From the sequence record MW822008.1: DNA of 64,000 nucleotides, one strand, 5' to 3'. This document shows, in pieces, positions 14,684-57,861 of this stretch (position 1 is its first letter; every line of letters starts with the position of its first letter). The notes beneath the pieces are model-generated. The model searched no databases. It had not been told where the DNA came from and saw only the letters and a list, made by a program, of their open reading frames with translations. The position numbers and the translations under genes were made by a program. This DNA is from Escherichia phage BF17.

Positions 14684-14715
14684 AGAAAAGGAGAGCAAAT
14701 GCTCTCCTTTTTGTT
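14684..14715. terminator. Bidirectional intrinsic terminator
   Basis: aaaa-AGGAGAGC-aaat-GCTCTCCT-ttttgtt between the clp gene (+) and the giant gene (-); almost the same sequence recurs at 60449-60480. Confidence 0.75.
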
Positions 14716-24685: not shown

Positions 24686-24722
24686 TTTTGGACTCCATAT
24701 AATTCGTTCATTCATTTGATTT

Positions 24723-24765: not shown

Positions 24766-27700
24766 TTATGAACCAATGTTAATGTTACTCTTAGCCAAGG
24801 AATTGACTATCTGTACGTTATCAACTGATGCAGTACTTAAGAAAATCTGGTCAGAACGTGAAGGGATTTCAAATAGTGATCCAAATTTAGAGTTAGGGTT
24901 TTGAGCTACGATAACAATAGTACTAATATGTCGTCCTAATTGGGAGTGAATGTATGTACACAAGTCTGTGTAATAGAAACTTTCACCAAAATCCCAGTTG
25001 TCAACATTAAAATACTCGTTAGTTAGTGCTACGACATTTTGACGAATTTCATCATCACTCATTGTACTGTTAGGCAATTTGACGACTTTAAAATCTGCTT
25101 TATAATCTTCAGCAGCACTCGCACCAAATAATGGTAGATATTCTGCACTATGCCAAATAATACTGTCACTGATGACTATTTTTTGTTCAACTTCTTTAAA
25201 AATGTCTTTCAATTCAACAGATGTTGGCGGTTTAGGCATATTACCTTGTGTTCCATTCTTCAACCATACATCAACTTCAGTTTTGTATGAATTGGTTAAT
25301 ACATACATGTCAATCAAGTTTGTTCTACTTGGGTCAATGCGATTATCATCTGGTGCATAATGTTTCCAGTGGAAATCAATACCAGTTCTTGCATTCGTTT
25401 TTACGGTATATTGTGAAGTTACATCTTTATAACCATAATAATCTAACTTTTGGTTAACATCAGCATTAGTACCGATATTAACAATAGCACGATAAAACGC
25501 AAGTTCAGGAGTTGCAGCAGTTGTATCATCAGAATAGGTCAAGTTCTCAATTAATTGGTTTAAACGGTCATTATTATTACCAACAGTTTGTTCAATGAAG
25601 TAATATTTACCATCATAGTTAAAGCCAACTATAAAGCCTGAACCTTTACTATAGATACCACTCAATGTTGTTGATCGAATAGCATTGTTGCGAACAAATT
25701 CACTTCTCTTATACGCATTAGTTTCTGCAAGTGCCTGATCCATTGTATAAGCCCATGAAGAATCAAGAATAGTGAAAGTATCATTCGGTAATGACAGTAC
25801 TGATATAGTGAAATCATCGTTTTCTTGGAAAACCAATATACCACCATATTTAACTGAATCTTCACCAGTCCAATTTGGTACAATTTCTCTGAATTGATTA
25901 GGTTCTAGTGGGATTCCATTACTATCAACGTTTTCAGAGGTGATAACCACACGAGAACCATCAAGATACCCGTTTTCTTGTTGAATTGTGTCATAAATTT
26001 GGAAATCTATGTTACTTGTCAACCCAGCATTACTATTGCTTGTGGTATTTGATGATAAAATTTCAATTTTGTCACTTTGAACACTACCAGTACTAATATC
26101 AGTTATCTTTTTAGAAGAAACGAAGTAAAAACGAACTTTATCACCACCAACGAACACATATTCAACGCCATTCGCATCAAATTCCCAGGTTTCAGCAGTA
26201 TATTTGATGTTAATCATAACAAGAACTTCATTTCCATTATAAGAAATAGTATCTTCATCAGTACTGATTTCTAATGGAATCCAAGAAGTTGTTTCTTTAT
26301 CATGAATAATAACAAAATCTGTCTTTTTATCAAGCATTGCAGCGATTGCTTGCACTTCGACACTATTAAAACGTGTTCTGTATTGTAAAATGTACTCTTG
26401 TGCTTGCATATTTGATGAAACTGAAGTACTTAGAACGTAATATCCATTATCAAGAACACTAACAATACTAGCCCACACAGTAGTTCCGGCATTTGAAAAC
26501 TTAATCAACGTACCAACTTGATAATTTCCGAATACGTTACCTGTTGCCCCCATAATACGACCATACGTATTAGTTGCGTAATTAGAATTGTATTCAGGTG
26601 TCCATTTTTGTTGAATTTCAATACCAATTGTATTCGGTGGATATGCTTGATAACGTTGGATTACAGCATTCTCACCAATCAATGGCTGAATATTATCAAT
26701 TACAATACTAGCATTTGTTTTGGTAGTTGGTAATTGTAAAGATTTATTAAATTGTGTGTTTTCTTGATACATTGAACCATCATCACTAAACACATCAGTG
26801 TTTTGATACTTACCAGTTGGATCATTAATATCAATGAATCGTGACTGTCCACTATATAAACGGTTAATTGCTTTAGATTTAAGAACTGTGTTACCCAAAC
26901 TCAACGGAGCAATGTTATAGTCTTCGCCGTTAACAAAACGGTTTTGAGTGTAATACATTTGTGGAGCACGAGCCTTAATTTGTTCAATTGTTTCTGCACT
27001 TTGTGCACGATCTGATTCATATTGCAATGTGAAACGAATATCCAAAGTACTGGATTCATAGCTTGATTGTGTTTTGGTTCTATAGGTGTATTTTACACTT
27101 TTGTTCTGGATTTCAGACGTTTTAATGTTGTATGTTTCACCATTACTAACACGATACCATACACGATACGTCCCACGAGGAACAACACCACTACGAGAAT
27201 CAGGATACTTAATAGTAATCTGGTCTTTATCACGAGTTGTGACAGCAAAGATTGTTTTTAGTTGACGGTTAACAGTATTGTATGCGATACTTTCCATAGA
27301 TGGAACTTTGGTCCATTTAGTACGTACAATACCATCTTCGTTGATTTCCTGAACCCAAACATCAGTTTCGTTGATATTATCTACGTTGATGTCTTGGATA
27401 CGGTTTTCTTCACGAATATTATATTGGTAATCTTGGTATGTCAATGTCCCTTGAACAAAATAAACGAAGAAACCAGTATTTGGTGAACTAAATCCGTTAC
27501 CATCATTCTGATAAACGATATATTTTTGCTCTTGTGGTTCAGGGTGACGCTCTTCAACACCAACTGCTGTAATATCAGGGTTGACAACTTCAAATGTCAT
27601 CGATTCACCATTAACTGTAGCTGTGAATGGAAGACTTGGTGCTGACATTGGAATTGTATTCATACGATATAGCTGACGAGAAACACCATTGATATCGATA

Positions 27701-28227
27701 CGTTTAACCGGATTACCAAACTGGTTAGTACTGACAAATGAACTGTTCATAACTAGAATGAAGTTCTCATACCAGTTTGTGTCCATTGGGTCATTCCAAC
27801 GAATGATTTTATCCTTAAGTGATTCGTTAAAACTATTACGAACGTCTTGGTTGGTTTTTATTTCTGTTAATTTAGCAACTGCACGACCTGGATATGAACG
27901 GCGTGGAGAGTAAGAAATCATTTTTGCGAGTTTCAGTACTGATGCACGACGAGTAGCAGTATCTAGGAAGTTCTCACGAGTGTTTAAATCCATACGGAAT
28001 GCTAAGTTCTGTCCTAGCATAGAAATGGTATCTAGAATAAAGATGAACTGGTCGTTTTCGATCCAGTCGTTGAAAGAATCTGGGTACGTAGCACGTAGAT
28101 AGTCAATCATACTTTGACGGATTGTATCAAAGTCATAAGCTGTTAGATTGATCTTATAAAAGCTTTCATATACTTGAGTCCAATCTTCACCAGCGTATAA
28201 ATTTGATTGCCTTTTTTGTTGTGACAT
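24766..28227 (-). CDS. Baseplate wedge protein, gp6/Baseplate-J-like (1153 aa)
   Basis: RBS AAAGGAA; N-terminal region (YDFDTIRQSMIDYLRATYP...LDTISMLGQNLAFRMD) resembles the gp6/J N-terminus as I recall it; lies downstream of the gp25-like gene as in conserved baseplate modules. Confidence 0.6.
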   Translation of the reverse strand: MSQQKRQSNLYAGEDWTQVYESFYKINLTAYDFDTIRQSMIDYLRATYPDSFNDWIENDQFIFILDTISMLGQNLAFRMDLNTRENFLDTATRRASVLKLAKMISYSPRRSYPGRAVAKLTEIKTNQDVRNSFNESLKDKIIRWNDPMDTNWYENFILVMNSSFVSTNQFGNPVKRIDINGVSRQLYRMNTIPMSAPSLPFTATVNGESMTFEVVNPDITAVGVEERHPEPQEQKYIVYQNDGNGFSSPNTGFFVYFVQGTLTYQDYQYNIREENRIQDINVDNINETDVWVQEINEDGIVRTKWTKVPSMESIAYNTVNRQLKTIFAVTTRDKDQITIKYPDSRSGVVPRGTYRVWYRVSNGETYNIKTSEIQNKSVKYTYRTKTQSSYESSTLDIRFTLQYESDRAQSAETIEQIKARAPQMYYTQNRFVNGEDYNIAPLSLGNTVLKSKAINRLYSGQSRFIDINDPTGKYQNTDVFSDDGSMYQENTQFNKSLQLPTTKTNASIVIDNIQPLIGENAVIQRYQAYPPNTIGIEIQQKWTPEYNSNYATNTYGRIMGATGNVFGNYQVGTLIKFSNAGTTVWASIVSVLDNGYYVLSTSVSSNMQAQEYILQYRTRFNSVEVQAIAAMLDKKTDFVIIHDKETTSWIPLEISTDEDTISYNGNEVLVMINIKYTAETWEFDANGVEYVFVGGDKVRFYFVSSKKITDISTGSVQSDKIEILSSNTTSNSNAGLTSNIDFQIYDTIQQENGYLDGSRVVITSENVDSNGIPLEPNQFREIVPNWTGEDSVKYGGILVFQENDDFTISVLSLPNDTFTILDSSWAYTMDQALAETNAYKRSEFVRNNAIRSTTLSGIYSKGSGFIVGFNYDGKYYFIEQTVGNNNDRLNQLIENLTYSDDTTAATPELAFYRAIVNIGTNADVNQKLDYYGYKDVTSQYTVKTNARTGIDFHWKHYAPDDNRIDPSRTNLIDMYVLTNSYKTEVDVWLKNGTQGNMPKPPTSVELKDIFKEVEQKIVISDSIIWHSAEYLPLFGASAAEDYKADFKVVKLPNSTMSDDEIRQNVVALTNEYFNVDNWDFGESFYYTDLCTYIHSQLGRHISTIVIVAQNPNSKFGSLFEIPSRSDQIFLSTASVDNVQIVNSLAKSNINIGS

Positions 28228-39440: not shown

Positions 39441-39915
39441 TATCTACCATATTTAATTTGCCTTCCTTGATAAGCTTTCTGGCTTGCTTAACACGAGCAG
39501 CATTGTTTGCACCAGGGATAACACCTAACTCTTCCAGTATTGCATTCTGTTGTCCTGCTGGGAGCCTTTTAAACTTATTCGTATCGATTGTTAGTGCAGT
39601 GTGATGTATAACTTGCTCATCTTCAGGAATGCTGTTATTACGCTCCAGATAATCCGCAAGATTTCGTAGTACCTCGTATAAGGGTTTATCGGTTAAGTGC
39701 TTCATATAGCGATTAAAGCTGTTCTGTACTTTACCTTCCCATGCGTTCACTTCGTTCTGGAGAACTTCACGACAGTGTTGATTCTCGAAGTGATAGTGAT
39801 CAAGTACTGGCTTAGTTATTGGTTCCTTAATTATAGGATCAATTCCTTTTTGCTTCTTTAGTAATTCATTTCGATAGTTTGCAGCTTCTTTACTATCTTT
39901 TAATCTTTTCTTCAT
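39424..39915 (-). CDS. Endonuclease VII-like protein (T4 gp49 homolog) lacking the zinc-binding cysteines
   Basis: Blocks LDHYHFE, NEVNAWEGKVQNSFNRY, YEVLRNLADYLE and KFKRLP parallel T4 endo VII (LDHDHE, CNLCNAAEGQMKHKFNRSGL, DYLEWLENLLTYL, EFSRLGK) from memory; the CxxC pairs are absent. Confidence 0.55.
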   Translation of the reverse strand: MKKRLKDSKEAANYRNELLKKQKGIDPIIKEPITKPVLDHYHFENQHCREVLQNEVNAWEGKVQNSFNRYMKHLTDKPLYEVLRNLADYLERNNSIPEDEQVIHHTALTIDTNKFKRLPAGQQNAILEELGVIPGANNAARVKQARKLIKEGKLNMVDIKKGS

Positions 39916-40007
39916 AAATCCCCACTAAACTAATTCTTATCAAAATATTTATGCGTTACTTCAATGTTCAAGAATTATGTACTTTTTATAAATTTTTTAT
40001 CATAATA

Positions 40008-40037
40008 GTGAGACACTTTTGAATTTGGTGCTATAAT
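40008..40037 (+). promoter_or_regulatory. Sigma70-type promoter with extended -10, no ORF downstream
   Basis: TGAGAC, 18-bp spacer, TGcTATAAT (-10 at 40032-40037); same core as the gp55 promoter. Confidence 0.5.
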
Positions 40038-40043
40038 GTTAAT

Positions 40044-40499
40044 TGTAGTGATGACAATCCTGTTGAATGCAGAAATGCATATAAATTAGAACCTGATCCT
40101 ATCGAAAATGTAGATGGCAGATGAGCAGTTCAACAGTGCGATGAGCAGAAGAAACCCGTTAGATGTGGGCATAGTTTGAACCCCTCACGGCGACACGGCT
40201 CAATAAAGAACTCCGATAAGCATACAGAGAGTTCCTCGATAGATGTATAAGGATCGCACCTTACCAGATTTGCTAAGGGAGTTTATTAAGTGATTTAATA
40301 AACAGCCTGAAGTTTGATTGTATAGACTTTCAGGTGAGTGTCAGGATGATTAAGACTGACGACCGTTGCACATGACTGCGATAGAGAGAAACAGAGCAAC
40401 CCGCTTTCGTTCTTAATGAATTTTAAGAAATTCGCAATACAATAAATGCTGAAACCATCAGCGTCAAGAATTAAGAGACTTAATTGTCTCTTTTTTATT
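40044..40499 (+). ncRNA. Candidate non-coding transcript (~450 nt) of unknown class; alternatively an origin-associated primer transcript
   Basis: Bounded by the promoter at 40008-40037 and the terminator at 40473-40499; longest plus-strand ORFs are 12-21 codons with no RBS; contains direct repeat GATGAGCAG (40117, 40140) and local hairpins. Confidence 0.35.
40473..40499 (+). terminator. Intrinsic terminator (plus strand)
   Basis: AAGAGAC-ttaatt-GTCTCTT-TTTTATT. Confidence 0.65.
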
Positions 40500-40501
40500 G
40501 T

Positions 40502-40524
40502 CTTCATTCCCCTGCGGGGGGATG
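40502..40524. other. Stable GC-rich hairpin flanked by direct repeats TGTCTTCA
   Basis: TCATTCCCC-tgc-GGGGGATGA, 9-bp stem with one G-U pair, in an otherwise AT-rich intergenic context; no U-tract on either side. Confidence 0.5.
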
Positions 40525-40715
40525 AAAATGTCTTCAACAAATCCCGTCAAGTATTAAATCTTTTAAAGTTCTTTATAATTAATTATAAGAAATGAATATG
40601 AGTTACGTAGTAACGAATATTCTTCAGCTAACGAATGAAATGAGTTAGATGAGTTCACTATAAAATAATTAATTCCTTTCATAATTCAATTCAATCAATT
40701 CTGTAGTTTAAAACC

Positions 40716-40741
40716 AAAAAAAACCAGCAACAATGTGCTGG
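40716..40741 (-). terminator. Intrinsic terminator of the minus-strand operon 41798-40753
   Basis: Minus strand reads CCAGCA-cattgt-TGCTGG followed by a run of eight T. Confidence 0.7.
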
Positions 40742-40752
40742 CTCCTTGTGAG

Positions 40753-40962
40753 TTAGTGCTTCTCGTTTTGTTTTTTAATTTTCTTATTAAAAGACTTAAC
40801 TAATAAGTCTCTATCAATTAGTGGCATATTAAGTAGTGTTCCGTAATCAACACTTTCCATATAAACAGAACACTCCATTAATGCAGTTTTAATATCTGAC
40901 TTATTCAACTCAAATTCCTTAAGTACTTCTTGTATTTCTTCAGGAGATGAGTGGAGAAGCAT
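40753..40962 (-). CDS. Hypothetical small protein (69 aa)
   Basis: 1-nt overlap with the upstream gene; followed by a terminator. Confidence 0.4.
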   Translation of the reverse strand: MLLHSSPEEIQEVLKEFELNKSDIKTALMECSVYMESVDYGTLLNMPLIDRDLLVKSFNKKIKKQNEKH

Positions 40963-41798
40963 TATGCGAAAAAATGACTTGGGTCATATTTCAGTCCATT
41001 AATTTCCCATTGATGATTACAGTCACTGCATTCAACTTCCATAGTATGGGAAACACCAATTTCAAGTACTTCATCCATTTTTTCACGAATTATTTTAAGT
41101 GTTCCTTTGGACTGCTGACCTAGCCATTCAGAAATGAATTCATTTTCAGTTACTTCATCACCTTCAGGTGTAATTACCTTAGCAATAACTCCTGCGATCA
41201 TATCAAAGTTGAGTTGTGCCATACTTTCAAATACTTCACCAAACACTTTAACTTTTTCTTCCTGCTCCATTTCGGCAGTTTCAAGGAATTTAGTTTTTTG
41301 TTGTTCTGTAAACATTCTTTCTGCGAAGTTAGAATATTCCTTCCAAGTAAGTGGTCTAAACTCTAAACTTAGTCCATTATCCAATTGTACAGTAGGAACT
41401 TCACTGAAAGTTTGTGCTGTTTCTAGTAGATATGATAAGCTACGCTCAAAACGACCTTCTTTGTTACATTCAGGGCATGTCACATTAATATCATATGATT
41501 CTTCTTTAGAAGCTACTTTAATAGCGATAAGTAGTTGCTCTACGTCATTTACATAAAGTTCATCTGCATCAAGTACGTTAGGTACGCAGTTTTCAATAAC
41601 ACGAGCAATTGCATCACCATTTAGAAGCATATCTGGTGTATTGAGTGTCATTTCATCACGTGCACTACGAGCACAAATGCCACATTTGATACCTTTAGAG
41701 CCAAGAACTCCTTCTTTATAAGGAATCACGCCATTTGTGACCAATTTTGTACCAAGTTCTTCAATTTTAGTATACTTAGCTAGTGGGTTCATTGCCAT
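40962..41798 (-). CDS. Hypothetical Cys-pair (zinc-ribbon-like) protein (~278 aa; ORF track start 41867 rejected)
   Basis: ATG at 41796-41798 (MAMNPLAKY...) with RBS GGAGA; CGIC, CPEC and CSDC pairs; no confident family assignment. Confidence 0.5.
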   Translation of the reverse strand: MAMNPLAKYTKIEELGTKLVTNGVIPYKEGVLGSKGIKCGICARSARDEMTLNTPDMLLNGDAIARVIENCVPNVLDADELYVNDVEQLLIAIKVASKEESYDINVTCPECNKEGRFERSLSYLLETAQTFSEVPTVQLDNGLSLEFRPLTWKEYSNFAERMFTEQQKTKFLETAEMEQEEKVKVFGEVFESMAQLNFDMIAGVIAKVITPEGDEVTENEFISEWLGQQSKGTLKIIREKMDEVLEIGVSHTMEVECSDCNHQWEINGLKYDPSHFFA

Positions 41799-50223: not shown

Positions 50224-50246
50224 TAATAAAGAATTTAAATATACTA

Positions 50247-50276
50247 GGGACTCTTCGGAGTCCCTTTTCTTTTTTC
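50247..50276 (+). terminator. Intrinsic terminator with UUCG tetraloop after the capsid gene
   Basis: GGGACTC-TTCG-GAGTCCC-TTTTCTTTTTT. Confidence 0.8.
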
Positions 50277-50287
50277 AGAAAAAAAGC

Positions 50288-50316
50288 TTGACAAGTAGAT
50301 TTTAATTATATATAAT
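50288..50316 (+). promoter_or_regulatory. Consensus sigma70 promoter
   Basis: TTGACA (50288-50293), 17-bp spacer, TATAAT (50311-50316). Confidence 0.65.
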
Positions 50317-50351: not shown

Positions 50352-51458
50352 ATGCCAAAAGTAAGTATCGACAAAGAAAAATTCATTGAAGAGATGAACA
50401 ACAAGTATGGAGCATATGGTGAATTTGATTTCAGCACTTTAGTATTCAAAGCCAGTAAGACAACAGTTAAATGTAATAAATGCGGAAAAGAAAATACTAA
50501 ACCTGCACTACGTCACATTTCATGTACATGTTCTTCATGTTATTCAAACATGTCACAGCGTTCGAACAACGAAAAATTTATCAGCACGGTAGAAACTAAA
50601 TTTGGAAAAGATAAATTCAAATTTGATAAACTAAATTACATTAACGCTATAACAAAAGTAACCATACTCTGTACAGACGAAGAACATAACGATTACTTTG
50701 AAATTACACCAAACAAATTTCTTACTGGTAAGGGATGTCCTATATGTAATAAAAATGAAGCATACAGTACTGAAGAATTCGTAGAAAAAGTAAAAGAAAA
50801 TTATGGTGATTCATTAGATTTAACTAACACAGTATATGTAAATCAAAAAACTAAAGTAACTGTGTATTGTAAAGCGGGTAACCATGAATGGACAGTTGAT
50901 CCGAAAACTTTACTTGTTGGTAAAACTGGCTGCGGTACATGTTCTGGTAAAGGTGGAAGAAGCACTGAACGTTTCATTGAACTTGTGTCGCCTATCCATA
51001 ACCATAAGTATGATTATAGTTTGGTTGAATATACTATAAGCGAGAATTATGTTGATATTGTATGTCCAACTCATGGTGTTTTCTCCCAACAACCAAAAGC
51101 ACATATGGCTGGTAAAGGATGCCCATCATGTGGTGAATATGGATATCAGCCATCAAAACCTGGATATTTCTATGTTCAAAAACTAACTAATAAAGATAAG
51201 ACAGTGTACAAGTATGGAATCACTGGTGATATGAAACGCCGTGTAAATGAGCAAAGTCGTCATTCTGGTTTTGAACACACAGTACTGATAGAACGTTACT
51301 TTGAAGATGGAAATCAACCATTACTGTTGGAAAAGTTCATAAAGAAATACATTGAAAGTGGTGTTGTAAGTACTGAAGAGTTGCCATCAGGATTTACTGA
51401 AACTTTTGATGCTAAGTATCTTGAAAGTGTTTTAGAAATTGTAAATACTTTTAAGTAA
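50352..51458 (+). CDS. T5orf172 / GIY-YIG-like domain protein with N-terminal Cys-rich tandem repeats (putative homing-type nuclease), 368 aa
   Basis: C-terminal GYFYVQKLTNKDKTVYKYGITGDMKRRVNEQ fits the T5orf172 motif; N-terminal half has at least three repeats containing GKGCPxC / GKTGCGTC. Confidence 0.55.
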   Translation: MPKVSIDKEKFIEEMNNKYGAYGEFDFSTLVFKASKTTVKCNKCGKENTKPALRHISCTCSSCYSNMSQRSNNEKFISTVETKFGKDKFKFDKLNYINAITKVTILCTDEEHNDYFEITPNKFLTGKGCPICNKNEAYSTEEFVEKVKENYGDSLDLTNTVYVNQKTKVTVYCKAGNHEWTVDPKTLLVGKTGCGTCSGKGGRSTERFIELVSPIHNHKYDYSLVEYTISENYVDIVCPTHGVFSQQPKAHMAGKGCPSCGEYGYQPSKPGYFYVQKLTNKDKTVYKYGITGDMKRRVNEQSRHSGFEHTVLIERYFEDGNQPLLLEKFIKKYIESGVVSTEELPSGFTETFDAKYLESVLEIVNTFK

Positions 51459-51481
51459 ACAACCATAAGGAGTTGACACGG

Positions 51482-51832
51482 ATGTTAACTGTATACATTT
51501 TTAAGAAAGAAGAGTACTTAAAGAGTCAGTACTCAAAAATTGAGATTAACGTTCCATACGGGACTTTAGTTGGTTATGATGAAGCTAGTGAAACTTTGTA
51601 TTATAATGATGATAGACTGGACTATAGTATTGATTCATTTATTGAAGACATACTTAATAGTAACACTGAAGATATGTTGTATGAAGAATACTTAGATAAG
51701 TACAAAGAACGTATGTCAAAGTTACATGCTGATGCTCCAGTACTGAACATTTCAAAAACTCCTTCTGAATTCGAGCCACAAAACCCATTCCAACGCCTAA
51801 TTGATGCTGGGGTAAATTTCCGAATTACTTGA
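51482..51832 (+). CDS. Hypothetical protein (~116 aa)
   Basis: Start ATG 51482 with RBS TAAGGAG; the ORF-track start 51473 is a TTG inside the RBS region. Confidence 0.45.
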   Translation: MLTVYIFKKEEYLKSQYSKIEINVPYGTLVGYDEASETLYYNDDRLDYSIDSFIEDILNSNTEDMLYEEYLDKYKERMSKLHADAPVLNISKTPSEFEPQNPFQRLIDAGVNFRIT

Positions 51833-51871
51833 TTAATAAATATCTTCATATTACTGATGGAGATATTTTCT

Positions 51872-52180
51872 ATGTCACAGATATGTTATGTTATAGTAAA
51901 TGATGCATGGCCTGATTATGTTAAGATAGGATTTACCAGTAAATCTGAAATGACAGAACGTTTAAGGACATATCAAACTGCTACACCTTTTAGAGATTTT
52001 GTGGTATACCATGAAGTACACTTTGAAGATGCACGTTTAGCAGAGAAAGAAATTCACAAAAGACTAAAACAAATGAACGCAGTAAGGCAACCTAACACCG
52101 AGTGGTTCAAGATGCCTAAGAAGATAGCAGCGAACATCGTTGATTCTGTTCTTGACGATATGGAAAACGACTTGCTATAG
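51872..52180 (+). CDS. Small T5orf172 / GIY-YIG-like domain protein (~102 aa)
   Basis: YVIVNDAWPDYVKIGFTSKSEMTERLRTY fits the same motif; start ATG 51872 with RBS GGAG (ORF-track ATG 51857 lies inside that RBS). Confidence 0.5.
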   Translation: MSQICYVIVNDAWPDYVKIGFTSKSEMTERLRTYQTATPFRDFVVYHEVHFEDARLAEKEIHKRLKQMNAVRQPNTEWFKMPKKIAANIVDSVLDDMENDLL

Positions 52181-52221
52181 TAATAAATATAGTATATATT
52201 AATCATTAAAGGGATTTATAC

Positions 52222-53847
52222 ATGAGCATAAGTTTTAATAACCCACTGGATACTATGACTAGTACTGGTGCTAATGGATCTTTAGAACTAATAGTGCTTG
52301 GTGGTACACCAACTAATCCAAGACCTATTCGTTTTAATTCATCTTCTGTCATTTTACCAGTACAGGCATTGCCAGCAGGTGAGCAAGGTGCTATGGTATT
52401 TGATAGAAATGAGTTGGTGTTAAAATACCACAACGGGACAAGTTGGATTGCAGTATACGATACTGATACAATTCTTGAACCAATCCGTATTTCACTCGAT
52501 GAAGTGAACCGTAAACTGAATTTAAAAGTTGAAACAGTAACATATAGTAGTAGTGCTGTTCCAAGTGCGAGCATTAGTGGTACGAATTTAAATATCGTAT
52601 TCCCTACTCCATCAAGTAGCGGTAGTGGCCCAACAGGTCTTTACACTTCAATGAAGCCTGGTGCAATTACCCAGTACTCATTGACTTCTGGACAAACTGT
52701 TGCTAGTATTCGTGAACAGATGTCTGGAGTAACTAATGGTCAAAGTGGTCGTAATGGTACACAAGGTTCTCCGTGGAAAACTTCTGATGGTTGGTGTTTT
52801 GCTGATGGAATGTGGTGGCAATGGGTTGGTGAAAATGGTACAATCACTAAACAAGTTCCAAATCTTAACCAAGAAGCATACTTGAAAGGCATTACCACAT
52901 CAGGCGTAACTAAAACTGATAGTGTGATTGCAAGTAGTGCATCAATTAGTGGTACTGCGATATCAATTGCTCAACTTCCACCGCACTCATTTAGTTTCAG
53001 TGGAACTACTGGTGCTGCTGGTCGTCATGGTCATAGCCAAGCACTAAAAGGTATGGACAGAAGTGGTCTTAATGCGTTAACATCCAGTAACGACAACGGA
53101 ATCCCAACTGTAATTAATAACATTAACGAAGCACCTGATCACGTGCATAGTTTCAGTGGTTCTACGAATACTGTTGGTAGTGGTCAAGCACACAGCCACG
53201 GAATTAGCAATATTGACGTACCACACTTTAATGTGGCATACTTATATAACATTGCTGAGTCTAACGTTGCATTGAGTGAAAAAGTTGCAAACACCCGTTA
53301 TGTACTGAAAACTGGTGATACAATGTCTGGTTCATTGACTATTGCTAACAGTGCAACAATTCGTTCGAATGATACTTCATTAGTACTTTACTTCCGTAAC
53401 GCTACTAATGGTGAACGTGCAGCAATTTATCATAATTCATCTAACAATACATTACGTTTGAGAAGTAATGGTGGTTCTGAAGTTACAATTAACTCTTCTG
53501 GTGTACTTTATGCTCCATCAGTAACTGGTGCATCATTGTCTATTTCTGGAAACACAGCAACTGTTGCAAGTAAAAACATCGTCAGATCTATTAACGGTAA
53601 CAACGCTGATGCAAACGGTAACGTAACTTTAACACTGGGTGCTGTACAAGATGTTCGTTTAAGTAAAAGAACATCTACGCGAAGTGTTCCTGATTCTTCT
53701 TGGATCTATGCACCAGAAGGTGCTACGCTTGATGGGTTGTTTATTTCCGTAAATGGGAGTTCTGGTACACACGTTGAAGGTTATAGTTGGAGATATACAC
53801 AAAAATTAGTCAATGGTGTATGGACTAACGTAGTAGTGGAGTCTTAA
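52222..53847 (+). CDS. Tail fiber protein with His-x-His repeat region (541 aa)
   Basis: Repeats HSFSFSGTTGAAGRHGHSQA and HVHSFSGSTNTVGSGQAHSHG resemble HxH repeats of T-even fiber tips; beta-rich composition; RBS AAAGGGA. Confidence 0.6.
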   Translation: MSISFNNPLDTMTSTGANGSLELIVLGGTPTNPRPIRFNSSSVILPVQALPAGEQGAMVFDRNELVLKYHNGTSWIAVYDTDTILEPIRISLDEVNRKLNLKVETVTYSSSAVPSASISGTNLNIVFPTPSSSGSGPTGLYTSMKPGAITQYSLTSGQTVASIREQMSGVTNGQSGRNGTQGSPWKTSDGWCFADGMWWQWVGENGTITKQVPNLNQEAYLKGITTSGVTKTDSVIASSASISGTAISIAQLPPHSFSFSGTTGAAGRHGHSQALKGMDRSGLNALTSSNDNGIPTVINNINEAPDHVHSFSGSTNTVGSGQAHSHGISNIDVPHFNVAYLYNIAESNVALSEKVANTRYVLKTGDTMSGSLTIANSATIRSNDTSLVLYFRNATNGERAAIYHNSSNNTLRLRSNGGSEVTINSSGVLYAPSVTGASLSISGNTATVASKNIVRSINGNNADANGNVTLTLGAVQDVRLSKRTSTRSVPDSSWIYAPEGATLDGLFISVNGSSGTHVEGYSWRYTQKLVNGVWTNVVVES

Positions 53848-53848
53848 T

Positions 53849-54367
53849 ATGAAAACATATACACATTTCAAAAAATATATCCCAGTAGAAAAGAAACATG
53901 GAGATAATGTTCTTTATCTATTGTCAGATGAGGGTGCTGACTGGTATGATTGTCAAAACGAATTCAGACAAGATACTTTGAAAGTTCAGTACTCTGATGA
54001 TGGTTATATTGCACAAGCATCATATGATGTAACATTGTTAGTACCGTATGGATACAGTGTTTCTGAGTTGGAGCATGATGGTGATGAAGATGAAGTAGTT
54101 GGTAAAATCTATGATGGAAGTAAAATTTCTGATTATGTTGAATCTACTGATGAAAAGATCAAACGTCTATCATCTGAGCACCAAGAATTAAGAACCGTAG
54201 CAATTAATGAGTTGAATAACATTAAGATGGCGATAGATCTTGAGGTAGCAACTGATTATGAAATAGAACTGTTTCCTAAGTTGAAAGCATATGTTCTTGA
54301 GCTATCATCTCTAACAACATCTGAATTTAGTAAGAAGAAGTTTTCGTTCCCTGTTAAACCTGTTTAA
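53849..54367 (+). CDS. Putative tail fiber assembly chaperone (172 aa)
   Basis: Immediately follows the fiber gene with a 1-nt gap; size and acidic composition fit Tfa-type chaperones; RBS GTGGAG. Confidence 0.4.
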   Translation: MKTYTHFKKYIPVEKKHGDNVLYLLSDEGADWYDCQNEFRQDTLKVQYSDDGYIAQASYDVTLLVPYGYSVSELEHDGDEDEVVGKIYDGSKISDYVESTDEKIKRLSSEHQELRTVAINELNNIKMAIDLEVATDYEIELFPKLKAYVLELSSLTTSEFSKKKFSFPVKPV

Positions 54368-54376
54368 AAGTTTTTT

Positions 54377-54405
54377 TGGAACAAAATCGTAAGTAGTGAT
54401 ACAAT
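54377..54405 (+). promoter_or_regulatory. Sigma70-type promoter with extended -10 for the DsbA-like gene
   Basis: TGGAAC, 17-bp spacer, TGaTACAAT (-10 at 54400-54405). Confidence 0.45.
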
Positions 54406-54408
54406 GTA

Positions 54409-54444
54409 GTCATCTTACAGAGGTTGTGAGATGACATTTTTTTC
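54409..54444 (+). terminator. Intrinsic terminator overlapping the promoter's start region
   Basis: GTCATCT-tacagaggttgtg-AGATGAC-ATTTTTTT beginning 4 nt after the -10 hexamer. Confidence 0.6.
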
Positions 54445-54467
54445 AAAACACATGGAGAAGCAAACAA

Positions 54468-54773
54468 ATGGCAAAAGCTAAAAAAGAAGTTAAAGTTGAA
54501 ATTCGTGACCTAAATGATGAACAACGTAAACGTCTAGGTGATGCACTAAACAACGCAGTAGTACAACTTACTTTTATTGACGACACCAAAGCATCCTATG
54601 CAGATTTCATTAGTTCCATCTCTGATGAACTAGGTATTGATGCATCCGATATCAAACAAGCCGCTCAACGTATCTACAAAGGCGATTACTTTGATAAACA
54701 AAACAAACTCGATAATATCGAAACTATCCTAAGTGTTACTAACAATTTGCCACAAGCAGATGACGATTACTAA
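54468..54773 (+). CDS. Small acidic DNA-binding protein, T4 DsbA-like (101 aa)
   Basis: MAKAKKE..., SDELGIDASD and IYKGDYFDK loosely parallel T4 DsbA from memory; RBS GGAGAAG; sits next to the polymerase gene. Confidence 0.4.
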   Translation: MAKAKKEVKVEIRDLNDEQRKRLGDALNNAVVQLTFIDDTKASYADFISSISDELGIDASDIKQAAQRIYKGDYFDKQNKLDNIETILSVTNNLPQADDDY

Positions 54774-54797
54774 TAAGTACTAAAAACTAAACTTTAT

Positions 54798-54828
54798 AGC
54801 CTCCAATGAATGGGGGCTTTATTTTTAA
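54798..54828 (+). terminator. Intrinsic terminator
   Basis: AGCCTCC-aatgaat-GGGGGCT-TTATTTTTAA (one G-U pair). Confidence 0.55.
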
Positions 54829-54855
54829 CTTAATAAACGTAAAGGAATACAAACG

Positions 54856-57800
54856 ATGTATATCGATGCTTATATGGAACGTAAACGTACTGGTGATATT
54901 TTGCACGTAGCAGAACGTAAAAACGGTAAACGTATTCTACGTCAGTTGGACCCAGTATATGAATATTATGTTGAATCTCCTACTGGTGAACACAAAACAA
55001 TTTATGGAACCAACGCAAAGCATTTGGAGTTTGAAACTCAATCACAGATGAATAAAAGCGTTGAGCAACATAAAAATGAAGGTCTACGTATTTTTGAAAG
55101 TGATTGCAACATTACCTTCAAAACGTTGGCTAGAGAATACATGGGTAAAGGTTCGCCGGATTTGAACGTGGCATTTTTCGATATCGAAACCGACTTCCAT
55201 AAGAAGTTTGGTTATGCTCCACCATCAGATCCATTCAACCGTGTAACTGCAATTTCTCTATATCAATCATGGACTGGTAAGGATTATGTACTGACTTTGC
55301 CACCAACTGATATGGAAATGTACGAAGCACAAGATATTGTTCGTCAGTTAAACGAAGAAACTAACGACCCTAACAGTACTGTCATCCTTTATACGGATGA
55401 GAAAGAAATGTTTATGGAGTTCTTTAGTCTAATCGATGACTCTGATGTAATTTCAGGTTGGAACAGTGAATTCTTTGATATTCCATATATGGTCAACCGT
55501 ACCAAGAAAATCTTCAACGAAGCAACTACTGCTCGTTGGTGCTTGTGGAATAAAAAACCAAATGCTCGTGAAGCTGATAACTTTGGTAAAACTGTAGTAA
55601 CGTATGATCTTATTGGTCGCGTACACTTAGACTATCTTGCTCTTTATAAGAAACATGCTGGTCAAGTTGAACAGTCGTACAAACTAGATTATATTGCTGA
55701 AAAAGTAACTAAAGAAAACAAAGTATCCTATGAAGGTTCATTGGATAAACTATACCGTGAAGATTATATTACATTCTTGCGTTATTCTAAGCAGGATAGT
55801 ATTCTTCTAAAGAAAATTGATGCTAAATGTGACTTTATCAACCTGCATAACCGTCTTGCTCATAAAGAATGTGTACTAATTAGTACTACAATGGGTTCGG
55901 TTGCACTAATCGACACTGCTATCATCAACCTTGCTCACAGTCGCGGTGAAGTTGTTTTTAACAAAGCACCGAAAGATGATATTGAGTTAGATCCAGAGAT
56001 GGAGTACTATGGTGAAGAAGGTGATGAAGAAGATGAGAAAATCAGTGCAAAAGCTGCTGGTGCATGGGTTCAAGATCCAGTTCTTGGCCTTGTTAGCGAT
56101 TTGGGATGTACAGACTTTAACTCATTGTATCCAACTGTACTACGTACACTTGGCATGAGTACTGAATGTATTCTTGGACAACTTCGTCAAGACTACACTG
56201 ATGCATATCTTGCTGCTAAAGTACAAGAGCAAAAAGCTAAATCCAAATCTAAAGCGTTTGAACCTGATTGGACCGCTGCATGGCATGGTTTATTTGCTGC
56301 TGTAGAATTTACAATGGTTCATGAAAAATCTGACAAAACTTTGATTGTTGATTTAGAAGATGGTAGTTCGTTCAATGCAACTGGTAAAGAATTGTATGAT
56401 ATTATCTTTGCTGAAGACAGTACTATTGTACTAAGTGCTAACGGAACACTTTTTGATAAGTCTAAGTATGGTGTAATTCCAGATATTCTTACTCAATGGT
56501 ATTCTGAGCGTAAAGCACAACAAAAAATGGTAATCGACTACAAACACATGTACAGTGATGGGTGGGAATTCAATGGTTCTGAGAAGGTTGAACCTTTGCT
56601 ATCTAACTACACAAGTGGTACAATGTTCCGTACAAACTTACATGACAATGATCCTGTTTACCTATTACGTATTGCTATTGGTAAAGGTCAATGGGAAGAA
56701 GTTGCAAAACTCATTGTGGAAAATGGTTTAGTACTGAAAGATGGTCGTATTTTCTGTGCAACGGAAGATAAGAATTACTTCAAACAGCAAAGTGCATTCT
56801 GGAAACAGAACCAGCAAATTCGTAAGATTCTTCTAAACAGTCTATATGGTGCACTATTGAACAAAGGTTCACGTTTCTTTGATAAACGTTTAGGTCAGTC
56901 CGTTACCTTAACTGGTCGTTCTATGACTAAACATATGGCAAGCCGTATCAATGAAATCACTACTGGCGTTTATAATCACCAAGGTGGCTCTGTGATTTAC
57001 GGTGATACTGACTCCGTTTACTTCAGTGTAACTCATTACCTGAAAGAACAAGGTATTCCATATAATCTTTCGAAAGAAGAAATCGTTGACATGTATATCA
57101 AAATTGGTGATGAAGTTGGTGAATCATTCCCTTCATTCATGAACGAAATGTTCAATACTGGTATTGAGAAAGGTAAGATTGTTGGTGCAGACCTAGAGAT
57201 GGTCGGTTCCCGTGGTCTATTCCTGAAGAAAAAGCGTTATGCAATTCTCAAGTACTGGGAAGATGGTTTCCGTAAAGATGTTGATGGAAAGCCTGGTGAA
57301 ATTAAAGCGATGGGTCTTGAAATTAAACGTTCAGATACGCCAAAATACATCCAGAACTTCCTAGAAGAGACTCTAATTGCATTGCTGGTGGGTGAGTCTG
57401 AAGCTCAACTTAAACAGCGTGTACGTGACTTTAAAGAGGTATTTAAAGACATGCCTGTACACGAAAAGGGTTCACCGAAAACTGTTAAGAACTATACCAA
57501 CTTAGAAGCAGAATATGAAGTTTCTGGTAAATGTAAAGTTGGTCACGTATTAGCAGGTATTCAATGGAACCGTCTACGTGAAGTATATGATGACAAAACT
57601 GTACCTGAAGTAACTGACGGTACAAAAGTAATTGTATGTAACTTAAAAGATAACCCGATGGGTATCAAAGCAGTAGGTTACCCAATTGACTGTGTGGAAT
57701 ATCTACCTGAATGGTTCTTAGAACTACCATTTGATACAGAGAAAATGGAAGAAATAGTTCTAACTAAAAAATTAGAAAACATTTTTGGTATTCTGGATAT

Positions 57801-57861
57801 GGATATTGGTATTCATGAGAAAAGCACAGCAGCCGTTAATAACGGATTCTTCACCTGGTAA
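54856..57861 (+). CDS. 43: DNA polymerase, family B (gp43-like), 1001 aa
   Basis: Exonuclease motif FFDIETD; polymerase motif A DFNSLYPTV, motif B KILLNSLYGALLN, motif C VIYGDTDSVYF; RBS AAAGGAA. Confidence 0.9.
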   Translation: MYIDAYMERKRTGDILHVAERKNGKRILRQLDPVYEYYVESPTGEHKTIYGTNAKHLEFETQSQMNKSVEQHKNEGLRIFESDCNITFKTLAREYMGKGSPDLNVAFFDIETDFHKKFGYAPPSDPFNRVTAISLYQSWTGKDYVLTLPPTDMEMYEAQDIVRQLNEETNDPNSTVILYTDEKEMFMEFFSLIDDSDVISGWNSEFFDIPYMVNRTKKIFNEATTARWCLWNKKPNAREADNFGKTVVTYDLIGRVHLDYLALYKKHAGQVEQSYKLDYIAEKVTKENKVSYEGSLDKLYREDYITFLRYSKQDSILLKKIDAKCDFINLHNRLAHKECVLISTTMGSVALIDTAIINLAHSRGEVVFNKAPKDDIELDPEMEYYGEEGDEEDEKISAKAAGAWVQDPVLGLVSDLGCTDFNSLYPTVLRTLGMSTECILGQLRQDYTDAYLAAKVQEQKAKSKSKAFEPDWTAAWHGLFAAVEFTMVHEKSDKTLIVDLEDGSSFNATGKELYDIIFAEDSTIVLSANGTLFDKSKYGVIPDILTQWYSERKAQQKMVIDYKHMYSDGWEFNGSEKVEPLLSNYTSGTMFRTNLHDNDPVYLLRIAIGKGQWEEVAKLIVENGLVLKDGRIFCATEDKNYFKQQSAFWKQNQQIRKILLNSLYGALLNKGSRFFDKRLGQSVTLTGRSMTKHMASRINEITTGVYNHQGGSVIYGDTDSVYFSVTHYLKEQGIPYNLSKEEIVDMYIKIGDEVGESFPSFMNEMFNTGIEKGKIVGADLEMVGSRGLFLKKKRYAILKYWEDGFRKDVDGKPGEIKAMGLEIKRSDTPKYIQNFLEETLIALLVGESEAQLKQRVRDFKEVFKDMPVHEKGSPKTVKNYTNLEAEYEVSGKCKVGHVLAGIQWNRLREVYDDKTVPEVTDGTKVIVCNLKDNPMGIKAVGYPIDCVEYLPEWFLELPFDTEKMEEIVLTKKLENIFGILDMDIGIHEKSTAAVNNGFFTW

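What the first reader, a model, noticed from the sequence alone, without database searches (positions are those of the whole stretch)
54377..54444. Promoter and terminator overlap so the terminator only sees upstream read-through
The promoter TGGAAC-N17-TGaTACAAT ends at 54405 and the terminator hairpin starts at 54409, so a transcript started here would begin inside the 5' arm of the stem and could not form it. The arrangement would block read-through from the fiber/chaperone genes while letting the DsbA-like and polymerase genes be driven independently. A leader-attenuator reading is less likely for the same reason.
Basis: inference. Interest (0 to 1): 0.3.

Follow-up and report, generated by a model that had tools for sequence, protein, structure and literature searches.

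The report
Promoter nested inside a transcription terminator
In this giant E. coli phage a promoter sits 3 bases ahead of a terminator hairpin, so the hairpin probably stops RNA arriving from the tail-fibre genes but not RNA started at the promoter; this layout is kept across several genera of related giant phages, but it is a known kind of phage control cassette.

Summary
The window is an Asteriusvirus jumbo coliphage, 99.9% identical to Ecwhy_1.

- **Layout.** Between the tail-fibre assembly gene (stop at 54367) and a 101-aa gene (start at 54468) lie the box TGGAACA (54377-54383), the extended -10 TGaTACAAT (54397-54405), a 3-nt gap, a hairpin (54409-54435, -15.2 kcal/mol) and T7 (54437-54443).
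- **Promoter.** It is an exact member of a phage-specific class, TGRRACR-N13-TGNTAYAAT: 6 hits in the window against 0.23 expected. Its orthologue in phage CBB is published as Porf_262, listed separately from terminator Torf261, which starts 3 nt later.
- **Conservation.** In all 21 distinct relatives examined (17 of them in the pair-count alignment), the -10 is followed by 3 nt and then a stem beginning RNCA. The stems covary: 92% of cells are paired and 9 of 12 pairs show double changes. The only invariant pairs carry the CA at the predicted -1/+1 (C54411/A54412).
- **Consequence.** A transcript starting there loses the 3 basal pairs, about 8 kcal/mol, and contact with the U-tract. The hairpin is weakened, not abolished.
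- **Recurrence.** The same layout recurs at 4 or more other sites in this phage and 2 more in CBB.

No transcript ends have been mapped. This is a new member of a known kind (PeSL-like cassettes of T4-type phages), of modest interest.

The parts
50288..50316 (+). Context: perfect sigma-70 consensus promoter (TTGACA-17-TATAAT). It sits after terminator 50246-50265 and heads the five-gene array 50352-54367, which ends at the element.
   Evidence: 12 of 12 match. One search shows no strong + strand terminator between 50265 and 54409.
52183..52189 (+). Context: late-type promoter motif ATAAATA, about 30 nt before the tail-fibre gene (52222). It is a likely source of late transcripts that run into the terminator.
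   Evidence: Sequence. The same motif class is published for CBB structural genes, including Porf_260 before the orthologous tail-fibre gene. Inference only.
53849..54367 (+). Tail-fibre assembly protein gene, the last gene of the upstream unit.
   Evidence: Pfam Caudo_TAP 5.8e-09 and PHROG 136 6.2e-34.
54377..54383 (+). -35-region box TGGAACA of the phage-specific promoter class (TGRRACR), preceded by an A/T-rich stretch (54368-54376).
   Evidence: class motif 6 hits against 0.23 expected. CBB Table S6 'Promoter 1', Porf_262 TGAAACG.... Conserved in relatives.
54397..54405 (+). Extended -10 element TGaTACAAT.
   Evidence: Aligned columns G22, T24, A25, A27 and T29 are invariant in 17 relatives. 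The same element is annotated as minus_10_signal in fHe-Yen9-03.
54411..54412 (+). Predicted transcription start: C at -1 and A at +1, positions 6-7 after the -10. These are bases 3-4 of the 5' arm of the stem.
   Evidence: CA is present in 21 of 21 distinct relatives. These are the only two invariant stem pairs. The start site itself is inferred from E. coli start-site rules (own knowledge), not mapped.
54409..54435 (+). Terminator hairpin: 5' arm 54409-54420, loop 54421-54423, 3' arm 54424-54435.
   Evidence: -15.2 kcal/mol, z -4.8. Covariation. Orthologues annotated as terminators in G17, UE-S1, Munch and CBB (Torf261).
54437..54443 (+). T7 tract (U-tract of the intrinsic terminator), 1 nt after the stem.
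   Evidence: A T-run of 4-9 follows the stem in all relatives.
54454..54457 (+). Shine-Dalgarno GGAG of the 101-aa gene, within the conserved ACATGGAGA.
54468..54773 (+). 101-aa conserved gene of unknown function. It is the first gene of the downstream unit.
   Evidence: PHROG 12534 1.6e-45 and PHROG 639 1.6e-07. 73 phage records carry it, always next to PolB in those examined.
54798..54826 (+). Second intrinsic terminator (stem 54798-54818 plus TTATTTTT), between the 101-aa gene and PolB.
   Evidence: -12.5 kcal/mol, z -3.4. Orthologous to Torf262 in CBB. Annotated in G17 and Munch.
54856..57861 (+). Family B DNA polymerase gene.
   Evidence: Pfam DNA_pol_B_exo1 and DNA_pol_B; PHROG 262 1e-219.

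Best explanation
The element is a composite promoter-in-terminator cassette at the border between a tail-fibre transcription unit and a replication-gene unit.

**Upstream RNA.** RNA polymerase arriving from upstream may have started at the sigma-70 promoter at 50288, at the late-type motif at 52183, or at both. It transcribes the whole hairpin 54409-54435 followed by U7, and terminates at about 54441-54445. This is an ordinary intrinsic terminator.

**Promoter-started RNA.** The promoter immediately upstream (TGGAACA-N13-TGaTACAAT) belongs to a phage-specific class that in relatives heads DNA-synthesis genes. Its -10 ends 3 nt before the stem, so initiation falls on A54412, the fourth base of the 5' arm. 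RNA started there lacks the three basal pairs. The remaining 8-bp stem is about 8 kcal/mol weaker and ends 4 nt (GACA) before the U-tract, so it cannot reach the RNA:DNA hybrid. These transcripts therefore run on into the 101-aa gene and, after partial read-through of the second terminator, into the polymerase gene.

**Possible second role.** The residual hairpin begins exactly at +1. It could also act as a 5'-terminal stem-loop that protects the mRNA.

**Shown:** the anatomy, class membership of the promoter, covariation of the stem, fixed phasing, invariant CA, and recurrence of the layout.

**Inferred:** the start site, termination of upstream RNA, escape of promoter-started RNA, timing, and the 5' stabilising role.
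For: - **Anatomy.**
- **Promoter class.** The motif gives 6 hits against 0.23 expected, all on the + strand.
- **Published orthologues in CBB.** Orthologous promoter Porf_262 (187,472-187,500) and terminator Torf261 (187,504-187,543) are listed independently in the CBB paper. The class lies mostly before DNA-synthesis genes (PMC5259590).
- **Annotations in other relatives.** The same promoter is annotated in fHe-Yen9-03. The same terminator is annotated in G17, UE-S1 and Munch.
- **Fixed phasing.** A 3-nt gap and a stem starting RNCA are present in all relatives, down to 54% protein identity.
- **Stem covariation.** 92.2% of cells are paired and 9 of 12 pairs have double changes. The score exceeds 0 of 500 shuffles, and slid controls pair in 52% of cells or fewer. 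RNAalifold finds the same helix independently.
- **Invariant CA.** The only invariant pairs are those of the CA at the predicted -1/+1.
- **Strand specificity.** G-U pairs (25 of 230) make the + strand RNA more stable than the - strand RNA by at least 4 kcal/mol in 16 of 21 sequences.
- **Energetics.** Truncation at +1 costs about 8 kcal/mol in every relative and leaves 2-6 unpaired nt before the T-run.
- **Recurrence.** The layout recurs at Ecwhy_1 12112, 190359, 197735 and 200126 and in CBB at Porf_166/Torf165 and Porf_189/Torf188.
- **Gap distribution.** Full promoters lie at a gap of 0-9 nt (5 cases) or after the terminator. Almost none (1 case) lie at a gap of 10-49 nt.
Against: - No transcript 5' or 3' ends are mapped for any phage of this group.
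- The truncated hairpin is still -7 to -13 kcal/mol. In the RaK2, CBB and BF lineages it ends only 2 nt from the T-run, so some premature termination of promoter-started RNA cannot be excluded. Terminators inside 5' UTRs are common in Pseudomonas phages (PMC10914365).
- A crude census of -10-like hexamers near terminators shows no sharp peak. The generic sigma-70 scan is at chance level.
- It is unknown which holoenzyme uses this promoter class: host sigma-70, a modified form, or a phage sigma. The 7-nt start-site rule is therefore assumed.
- A terminator placed after the promoter does not shield the promoter from occlusion by incoming polymerases.
Confidence: 0.65

Rival explanations
1. Leader attenuator or premature terminator. 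Transcripts started at the promoter are themselves terminated, partly or conditionally, at the T-run by the remaining 8-bp hairpin. This would give a short RNA of about 30 nt and throttle expression of the 101-aa gene and the polymerase. The fixed 3-nt phasing would then tune the efficiency rather than abolish termination.
For: - The truncated hairpin is still -7.2 kcal/mol here and up to -12.8 in relatives. It ends only 2 nt before the T-run in the RaK2, Munch, CBB and BF lineages.
- 42 termination sites inside 5' UTRs were mapped in Pseudomonas phages (PMC10914365).
Against: - The three pairs lost are the basal ones next to the U-tract, which by established knowledge of intrinsic termination matter most. 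In the window 4 non-U bases (GACA) separate the stem from the U-tract.
- No alternative antiterminator structure and no Rfam leader were found.
- Full hairpins in leaders (gap 10-49 nt) are nearly absent from this genome, which suggests selection against leader termination.
Confidence: 0.15
2. RNA-stability or processing element rather than a terminator. The hairpin mainly protects the 3' end of the tail-fibre mRNA, the 5' end of the replication-gene mRNA, or both, or marks a processing site. Termination would be weak or irrelevant.
For: - In promoter-started RNA the hairpin begins exactly at +1 with no unpaired 5' nucleotide. That is the geometry known to protect E. coli mRNAs from 5'-end-dependent decay (own knowledge: Emory, Bouvet and Belasco 1992).
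- The stem is conserved as structure, not as sequence.
Against: - A T-run of 4-9 directly follows the stem in every relative. A stability hairpin alone does not need one.
- ARNold and TransTermHP-type annotations call it a terminator in four relatives.
- This reading is compatible with the best explanation as a second function, so it is a rival only in its exclusive form.
Confidence: 0.08
3. Terminator only. The promoter-like sequence is not an active promoter, and the downstream genes are expressed by read-through or from elsewhere.
For: - Generic sigma-70-like matches are at chance density in this A+T-rich DNA.
- The box TGGAACA is a poor -35 (3-4 of 6).
- No activity data exist.
Against: - Exact match to a class motif that is about 26-fold enriched and strand-biased.
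- The box, the 13-nt spacer length and the TGnTAtAAT are conserved across genera, while the spacer sequence and the upstream gene change.
- Independently predicted as a promoter in CBB (by MEME) and in fHe-Yen9-03.
- A strong terminator with no promoter after it would leave the 101-aa gene and PolB without transcription.
Confidence: 0.06
4. DNA-level palindrome. The inverted repeat overlapping the start site is an operator for a dimeric DNA-binding protein, for example autoregulation by the downstream 101-aa protein.
For: - The inverted repeat overlaps +1, a typical operator position.
- The downstream protein weakly matches a PHROG annotated as transcriptional regulator and, non-significantly, SarA-type winged-helix proteins.
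Against: - The half-site sequences are not conserved while the protein is (stems GTCATCTTACAG, GACAACC, AGCACGATGAGC).
- Pairing is kept through G-U wobbles that would be A-C mismatches on the other strand. The + strand RNA is more stable in 16 of 21 sequences.
- A T-run always follows.
Confidence: 0.03

Closest known systems
PeSLs (promoter-early stem-loops), composite promoter/terminator cassettes of T4-type phages (Arbiol et al. 2010, PMC2839356; Comeau et al. 2014, PMC4122927)
   Same: - An intergenic cassette made of a sigma-70-like promoter with an A/T-rich upstream region, a stem-loop that terminates transcription coming from upstream, and then the SD and ATG of the next gene.
- One described subclass has the stem-loop just downstream of the -10, at the initiation site.
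- Several copies per genome.
- The mosaic junction of a swapped gene module lies inside the element.
   Different: - PeSLs are about 100-bp repeats that are similar in sequence. They are concentrated in hyperplastic regions next to ORFans and drive early genes.
- The copies here share no stem sequence.
- The element here sits at a conserved core position (tail fibre | DNA polymerase) and uses a non-canonical -35 box class.
- Its phasing (3 nt, CA at the start) is fixed across genera.
- Recombination or mini-circle formation was not tested.
Phage CBB 'Promoter 1' class (TGAAACG-N13-TGnTATAAT) with Porf_262, and terminator Torf261 (Buttimer et al. 2017, PMC5259590)
   Same: - Direct orthologue: same position (tail-fibre assembly gene | small gene | PolB), same 29-nt promoter architecture, and a terminator starting 3 nt after the -10.
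   Different: - The two features are listed in separate supplementary tables, and I found no comment on their overlap in the passages read.
- The box in the window is TGGAACA rather than TGAAACG, and the stem sequence differs.
Promoter-coupled terminators of bacteria (Fletcher et al. 2026, bioRxiv 10.64898/2026.08.19.745784)
   Same: - A terminator and the promoter of the next tandem unit share the same few tens of base pairs.
- They could interfere with each other through polymerase occupancy.
   Different: - The order is reversed. There the termination site lies about 10 bp upstream of the start site, the stem doubles as the -35 and the T-tract precedes the -10.
- Here the predicted start lies inside the 5' arm, about 30 nt upstream of the termination site.
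5'-terminal stem-loops that stabilise E. coli mRNA (ompA 5' UTR; Emory, Bouvet and Belasco 1992; own knowledge, not checked here)
   Same: - The promoter-started RNA would begin with a hairpin with no unpaired 5' nucleotide.
   Different: - The stabilising role is purely inferred here.
- The same DNA also encodes a terminator for upstream RNA.
Premature terminators inside phage 5' UTRs mapped by ONT-cappable-seq (Putzeys et al. 2024, PMC10914365)
   Same: - A terminator immediately downstream of a phage promoter.
   Different: - In those cases the whole terminator lies in the leader and short RNAs are produced.
- Here the start is predicted inside the stem.

Membership tests
Intrinsic (Rho-independent) terminator | Stable stem-loop containing G-C pairs, on the coding strand, downstream of a stop codon | tested here: met
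   Stem 54409-54435, 11-12 pairs of which 4 are G-C, -15.2 kcal/mol, z -4.8. It starts 42 nt after the stop codon at 54367.
Intrinsic (Rho-independent) terminator | U-tract directly after the stem | tested here: met
   T7 lies 1 nt after the stem. A T-run of 4-9 is present in all relatives.
Intrinsic (Rho-independent) terminator | Structure under selection at the RNA level, on this strand | tested here: met
   92% of cells paired, 9 of 12 pairs with compensatory changes, 0 of 500 shuffles reach the score. Same helix from RNAalifold. G-U pairs favour the + strand.
Intrinsic (Rho-independent) terminator | RNA 3' ends in the U-tract; termination in a purified system | not testable with these tools
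   No Term-seq or 3' RACE data were found for this phage group.
Rak2-like phage promoter class TGRRACR-N13-TGnTAtAAT (CBB 'Promoter 1') | 7-nt box, 13-nt spacer, extended -10 | tested here: met
   TGGAACA-N13-TGATACAAT at 54377-54405 with 0 mismatches. Same 29-nt architecture as the 18 CBB sites.
Rak2-like phage promoter class TGRRACR-N13-TGnTAtAAT (CBB 'Promoter 1') | Enriched, strand-consistent, upstream of genes (mostly DNA-metabolism genes in CBB) | tested here: met
   6 hits against 0.23 expected, all on the + strand. This one precedes the small gene and PolB. The orthologous Porf_262 is listed.
Rak2-like phage promoter class TGRRACR-N13-TGnTAtAAT (CBB 'Promoter 1') | Initiates transcription; start about 7 nt after the -10 | not testable with these tools
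   Only indirect evidence: CA is invariant at positions 6-7 in 21 of 21 relatives.
PeSL cassettes of T4-type phages | Sigma-70-like promoter with an adjacent or overlapping stem-loop in one intergenic region, followed by SD and ATG | tested here: met
   Matches the subclass 'SLS downstream of the -10' described in PMC2839356.
PeSL cassettes of T4-type phages | Many sequence-related copies per genome, concentrated in hyperplastic regions flanking ORFans | tested here: not met
   5 or more composite sites in 269 kb, but their stems are unrelated in sequence. This copy lies at a conserved core-gene junction.
PeSL cassettes of T4-type phages | Acts as a recombination linker for modular shuffling (mini-circles) | tested here: inconclusive
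   Homology with Turkey3 and WPEC5 starts inside the promoter spacer (about 54391), and with the 121Q group at 54381-54396. This is also expected simply from a variable host-range module abutting a conserved one.
Promoter-coupled terminators (Fletcher et al. 2026) | Termination site about 10 bp upstream of the start site; stem serves as -35; T-tract just upstream of the -10 | tested here: not met
   The order is reversed: the -10 lies 3 nt upstream of the stem. The coupled order does occur elsewhere in this phage, for example Ecwhy_1 53648-53612 followed by TGAGACA-N13-TGATACAAT.
Leader attenuator or riboswitch | Complete terminator within the transcribed leader, plus an alternative antiterminator or a known leader family | tested here: not met
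   The predicted start lies inside the 5' arm. No competing structure was found. Rfam gave no match.

The most novel reading that the evidence does not exclude
Rak2-like jumbo phages may use a precisely phased 'promoter-inside-terminator' module as a multi-purpose boundary device. The module consists of the -10, a gap of 0-4 nt, and a stem whose third and fourth bases are the C-1/A+1 start. On this reading one 67-bp element would do four things:
- end late tail-fibre transcripts;
- launch middle or replication transcripts that are immune to the terminator;
- give those mRNAs a 5'-terminal protective hairpin starting at +1;
- serve as the conserved linker at which tail-fibre (host-range) modules are exchanged between phages.

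Polymerase bound at the promoter might also modulate termination of incoming polymerases.
Probability: 0.3. Interest if true: 0.45.

Novelty: new member of a known kind. Interest (0 to 1): 0.3.

Why it matters
**What it is useful for.**
- It gives a concrete, testable rule for reading transcription-unit borders in the 350-kb Rak2-like phages, whose transcription has not been mapped. A terminator that follows a promoter's -10 by 4 nt or less should act only on upstream RNA.
- That matters for annotating operons. It also matters for engineering these therapy-candidate phages, for instance when swapping tail-fibre modules without disturbing polymerase expression.
- It offers a compact natural insulator part.

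**What it adds.**
- The PeSL idea extends from T4-type phages to a distant jumbo-phage lineage.
- The phasing is unusually strict and conserved, with an invariant start dinucleotide embedded in a covarying stem.

**What it does not change.** It does not alter any principle of transcription.

Tried and rejected
- **Generic sigma-70 scan.** At chance level, so it was not used as evidence. The phage-specific class motif was used instead.
- **Folding the whole 100-nt intergenic region.** Not significant (z -1.4). Only the hairpin itself is significant.
- **Rfam.** With permissive thresholds on 54200-54900 and gathering thresholds on the whole window it found nothing relevant. The one sub-threshold Phe_leader hit lies on the second terminator.
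- **tRNA scan.** None found.
- **Census using only -10-like hexamers near terminators.** It gave no sharp peak. Only the census requiring a full promoter was informative. That census missed the 200126 site, which the first script had found, so the counts are lower bounds. About 85 kb of Ecwhy_1 was not fetched.
- **The 101-aa protein.** Pfam, NCBIfam and PDB sequence searches gave nothing significant, so 'DsbA-like' remains unverified.
- **IMG/VR search with the single protein.** It returned only 121Q and RaK2. The alignment query was needed to reach further relatives.
- **Literature searches for start-site or transcriptome data on Asteriusvirus and Rak2-like phages.** Nothing found.
- **DNA-operator reading.** Considered and rejected on the G-U wobble and strand asymmetry.
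- **U-tract/SD pairing in the leader.** It appears in the folds, but the fold of the leader as a whole is not above shuffles (z -0.4) and the pairing was not pursued.
Full report
**Identity of the window**

Bases 53800-55000 are 99.9% identical to Escherichia phages Ecwhy_1 and fEgEco12, which are jumbo myoviruses of about 350 kb in the genus Asteriusvirus. The region downstream of about 54381-54396 is about 85% identical to the 121Q/PBECO4 group.

The local gene order on the + strand is as follows:
- tail fibre, 52222-53847
- tail-fibre assembly protein, 53849-54367 (Caudo_TAP)
- a 100-nt intergenic region holding the finding
- a conserved 101-aa gene, 54468-54773
- a second terminator, 54798-54818
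- family B DNA polymerase, 54856-57861

**The observation**

- TGGAAC(A) at 54377-54383
- TGaTACAAT at 54397-54405
- GTA
- hairpin GTCATCTTACAG-AGG-TTGTGAGATGAC at 54409-54435
- A, then T7 at 54437-54443

The hairpin folds at -15.2 kcal/mol (z -4.8 against shuffles). The scan lists it as a terminator-like site.

A generic sigma-70 match is worthless in this A+T-rich DNA: 38 sites against 37 expected. But the promoter is not just a generic match. It fits, without mismatch, a phage-specific motif, TGRRACR-N13-TGNTAYAAT. That motif occurs 6 times in the window, always on the + strand, against 0.23 expected. The other five sites are at 3816, 35302, 40009, 58325 and 61919.

**What relatives show**

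I collected the orthologous intergenic region from two sources:
- GenBank phages of five lineages: Asteriusvirus; RaK2 (Alcyoneusvirus); Munch, Hallingskeid and EJP2; CBB, GAP32 and XbC2 (Mimasvirus); BF and fHe-Yen9-03 (Eneladusvirus).
- 14 IMG/VR loci.

The 101-aa protein falls to 54% identity across this set.

In every one, a TGnTAtAAT element is followed by exactly 3 nt, then a stem beginning RNCA (GTCA, GACA, AGCA or GGCA), a T-run, and the SD.

The stems differ between lineages by compensatory changes. On a 17-sequence alignment:
- 92.2% of cells pair.
- 9 of 12 pairs carry changes on both sides.
- No shuffle out of 500 reaches the observed covariation score.
- Sliding the 3' partner by 1-3 columns drops pairing to 31-52%.
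- RNAalifold finds the same helix on its own.

G-U pairs (25 of 230) make the + strand RNA more stable than the complementary RNA by at least 4 kcal/mol in 16 of 21 sequences. The selected object is therefore an RNA hairpin on this strand, not a DNA palindrome.

**The start site**

The only two stem pairs that never vary are the third and fourth, C-G and A-U. Their 5' bases are the CA at positions 6 and 7 after the -10 hexamer.

In E. coli the preferred start is the seventh base after the -10, a purine preceded by a pyrimidine (established knowledge, not tested here). In a stem that otherwise covaries freely, an invariant CA exactly there is best explained by a second constraint, namely initiation at A54412.

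It remains an inference.

**Consequence for the hairpin**

RNA starting at that A lacks the three basal pairs. In every relative this costs about 8 kcal/mol. In the window the energy goes from -15.2 to -7.2 kcal/mol. The truncation leaves 2-6 unpaired bases between the stem and the T-run, which in the window is GACA, 4 nt.

An 8-bp hairpin still forms. What it loses is its base and its contact with the U-tract. By established knowledge of intrinsic termination, the stem must reach within about 8 nt of the RNA 3' end, so these are the features that matter.

The residual hairpin begins exactly at +1. That is the geometry of known 5'-terminal stabilising stem-loops. This second role is speculative.

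**Prior annotation**

The parts are already annotated in relatives.
- The CBB paper (PMC5259590) lists Porf_262 (TGAAACGAAAATAAAACGTATGATATAAT, 187,472-187,500). It is one of 18 'divergent RpoD-like' promoters, found mostly before DNA-synthesis genes.
- A separate table in the same paper lists Torf261, starting at 187,504.
- fHe-Yen9-03 carries -35 and -10 features on the same promoter.
- G17, UE-S1 and Munch carry a terminator feature on the same hairpin.

In the passages I read, nobody comments on the overlap.

**Recurrence**

The layout is not unique to this site.
- In CBB, Porf_166/Torf165 and Porf_189/Torf188 have gaps of 2 and 4 nt.
- In 205 kb of Ecwhy_1 outside the window, four more composites occur at 12112, 190359, 197735 and 200126, all on the - strand. 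Each has a credible -35 and -10, a gap of 0-4 nt, a strong hairpin, a T-run, an SD and an ATG. The 190359 site is the orthologue of CBB Porf_189.

A census requiring a full promoter gave this distribution of the gap between the -10 and the stem:
- 0-9 nt: 5 cases
- 10-49 nt: 1 case
- promoter lying 50-80 nt after the stem start, the classical order: 13 cases

The near-empty middle class is what one expects if a whole terminator in a leader is selected against. The numbers are small. A looser census using -10-like hexamers alone is not peaked.

**What arrives from upstream**

No strong + strand terminator lies between 50265 and 54409. The array 50352-54367 is preceded by a perfect TTGACA-17-TATAAT at 50288-50316. 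The tail-fibre gene is preceded by ATAAATA at 52183-52189, the late-type motif reported for CBB and GAP32 structural genes, including the orthologous tail-fibre gene.

The terminator therefore plausibly closes a unit of about 4 kb that includes late tail-fibre transcripts.

Downstream, the second terminator stands between the 101-aa gene and PolB, with only 37 nt left before the PolB start. It has 8 pairs, folds at -12.5 kcal/mol and has an interrupted U-tract. PolB must therefore depend on read-through of it, and the promoter does not drive the polymerase 'independently' in a simple sense.

**Comparison with what is known**

- **PeSLs of T4-type phages** are the closest described kind. They are composite sigma-70 promoter and stem-loop cassettes whose stem-loop stops upstream transcription. 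One subclass has the stem-loop just after the -10 (PMC2839356; PMC4122927). The element here works like that subclass. It fails the PeSL criterion of being one of many sequence-related repeats in hyperplastic regions.
- **Mosaic junction.** The junction of the variable tail-fibre module does fall inside the element: Turkey3 and WPEC5 are identical only from about 54391 onward. A variable module abutting a conserved one would give the same picture.
- **Promoter-coupled terminators of bacteria** (bioRxiv 10.64898/2026.08.19.745784) have the opposite order, with the termination site about 10 bp before the start site.
- **Premature terminators in phage 5' UTRs** are real (PMC10914365). This keeps the attenuator reading alive at about 0.15.

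**Verdict**

Nothing is shown at the RNA level.

It is a new member of a known kind, with modest interest of 0.3.

Noticed in passing
window 54798-54826 (+): A second intrinsic terminator (AGCCTCCAATGAATGGGGGCT followed by TTATTTTT, -12.5 kcal/mol) lies between the 101-aa gene and the DNA polymerase gene. Only 37 nt remain before the polymerase start codon and no promoter fits there, so polymerase expression should depend on read-through. The terminator is conserved: Torf262 in CBB, and annotated in G17 and Munch.
   Followed up: partly
window 3816, 35302, 40009, 54377, 58325, 61919 (+): A phage-specific promoter class, TGRRACR-N13-TGNTAYAAT, gives 6 hits against 0.23 expected, all on the + strand. 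It corresponds to the 'divergent RpoD-like' TGAAACG class published for CBB and GAP32. Which sigma factor reads it is unknown; the Ecwhy_1 record has a sigma-factor-like misc_feature at 1662-2627.
   Followed up: partly
window 54381-54396 and 54437; L007 (Turkey3): Homology breakpoints of the variable tail-fibre module fall inside the element. Turkey3 and WPEC5 are 99.8% and 99.5% identical to the window only from about 54391 (the promoter spacer) onward. The 121Q group matches from 54381-54396, and the A4 and Turkey5 group from the T-run. Turkey3 lacks the assembly gene altogether. This suggests a PeSL-like linker role but does not prove one.
   Followed up: partly
Ecwhy_1 (MH791411.1) 12112-12079, 190359-190328, 197735-197705, 200126-200097, all - strand (L047, L049): Four more composites share the same layout: a full promoter, a gap of 0-4 nt, a strong hairpin, a T-run, an SD and an ATG. 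The stems are unrelated in sequence. The 190359 site is orthologous to CBB Porf_189/Torf188, downstream of the 'sigma-54 modulation protein' gene.
   Followed up: partly
window 50246-50316 (+); Ecwhy_1 53648-53575 (-): The classical order (terminator, then promoter) also occurs in this phage. At 50246-50265 a terminator is followed 22 nt later by a perfect TTGACA-17-TATAAT. In Ecwhy_1 a terminator T-run directly abuts a TGAGACA-N13-TGATACAAT promoter, which is the 'promoter-coupled terminator' geometry.
   Followed up: no
window 52183-52189 (+): An ATAAATA motif lies about 30 nt before the tail-fibre gene. It matches the T4-late-like motif reported before structural genes of CBB and GAP32.
   Followed up: no
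window 40038-41133: About 1.1 kb downstream of a class promoter (40009-40037) has no convincing + strand ORF; only short ORFs are found, mostly on the - strand. A + strand terminator lies at 40473-40492. Megablast of 39900-41140 finds 166 places in 56 records (3 per record for the best hits), including Erwinia, Serratia and Pectobacterium phages at 60-80% identity. Rfam finds nothing. It may hold small unannotated genes or a non-coding RNA.
   Followed up: no
window 14714-24715 (-): A single ORF of 3333 aa, followed by another of 1153 aa (24766-28227). Both lie on the - strand and each ends at a clear terminator. They were not examined.
   Followed up: no
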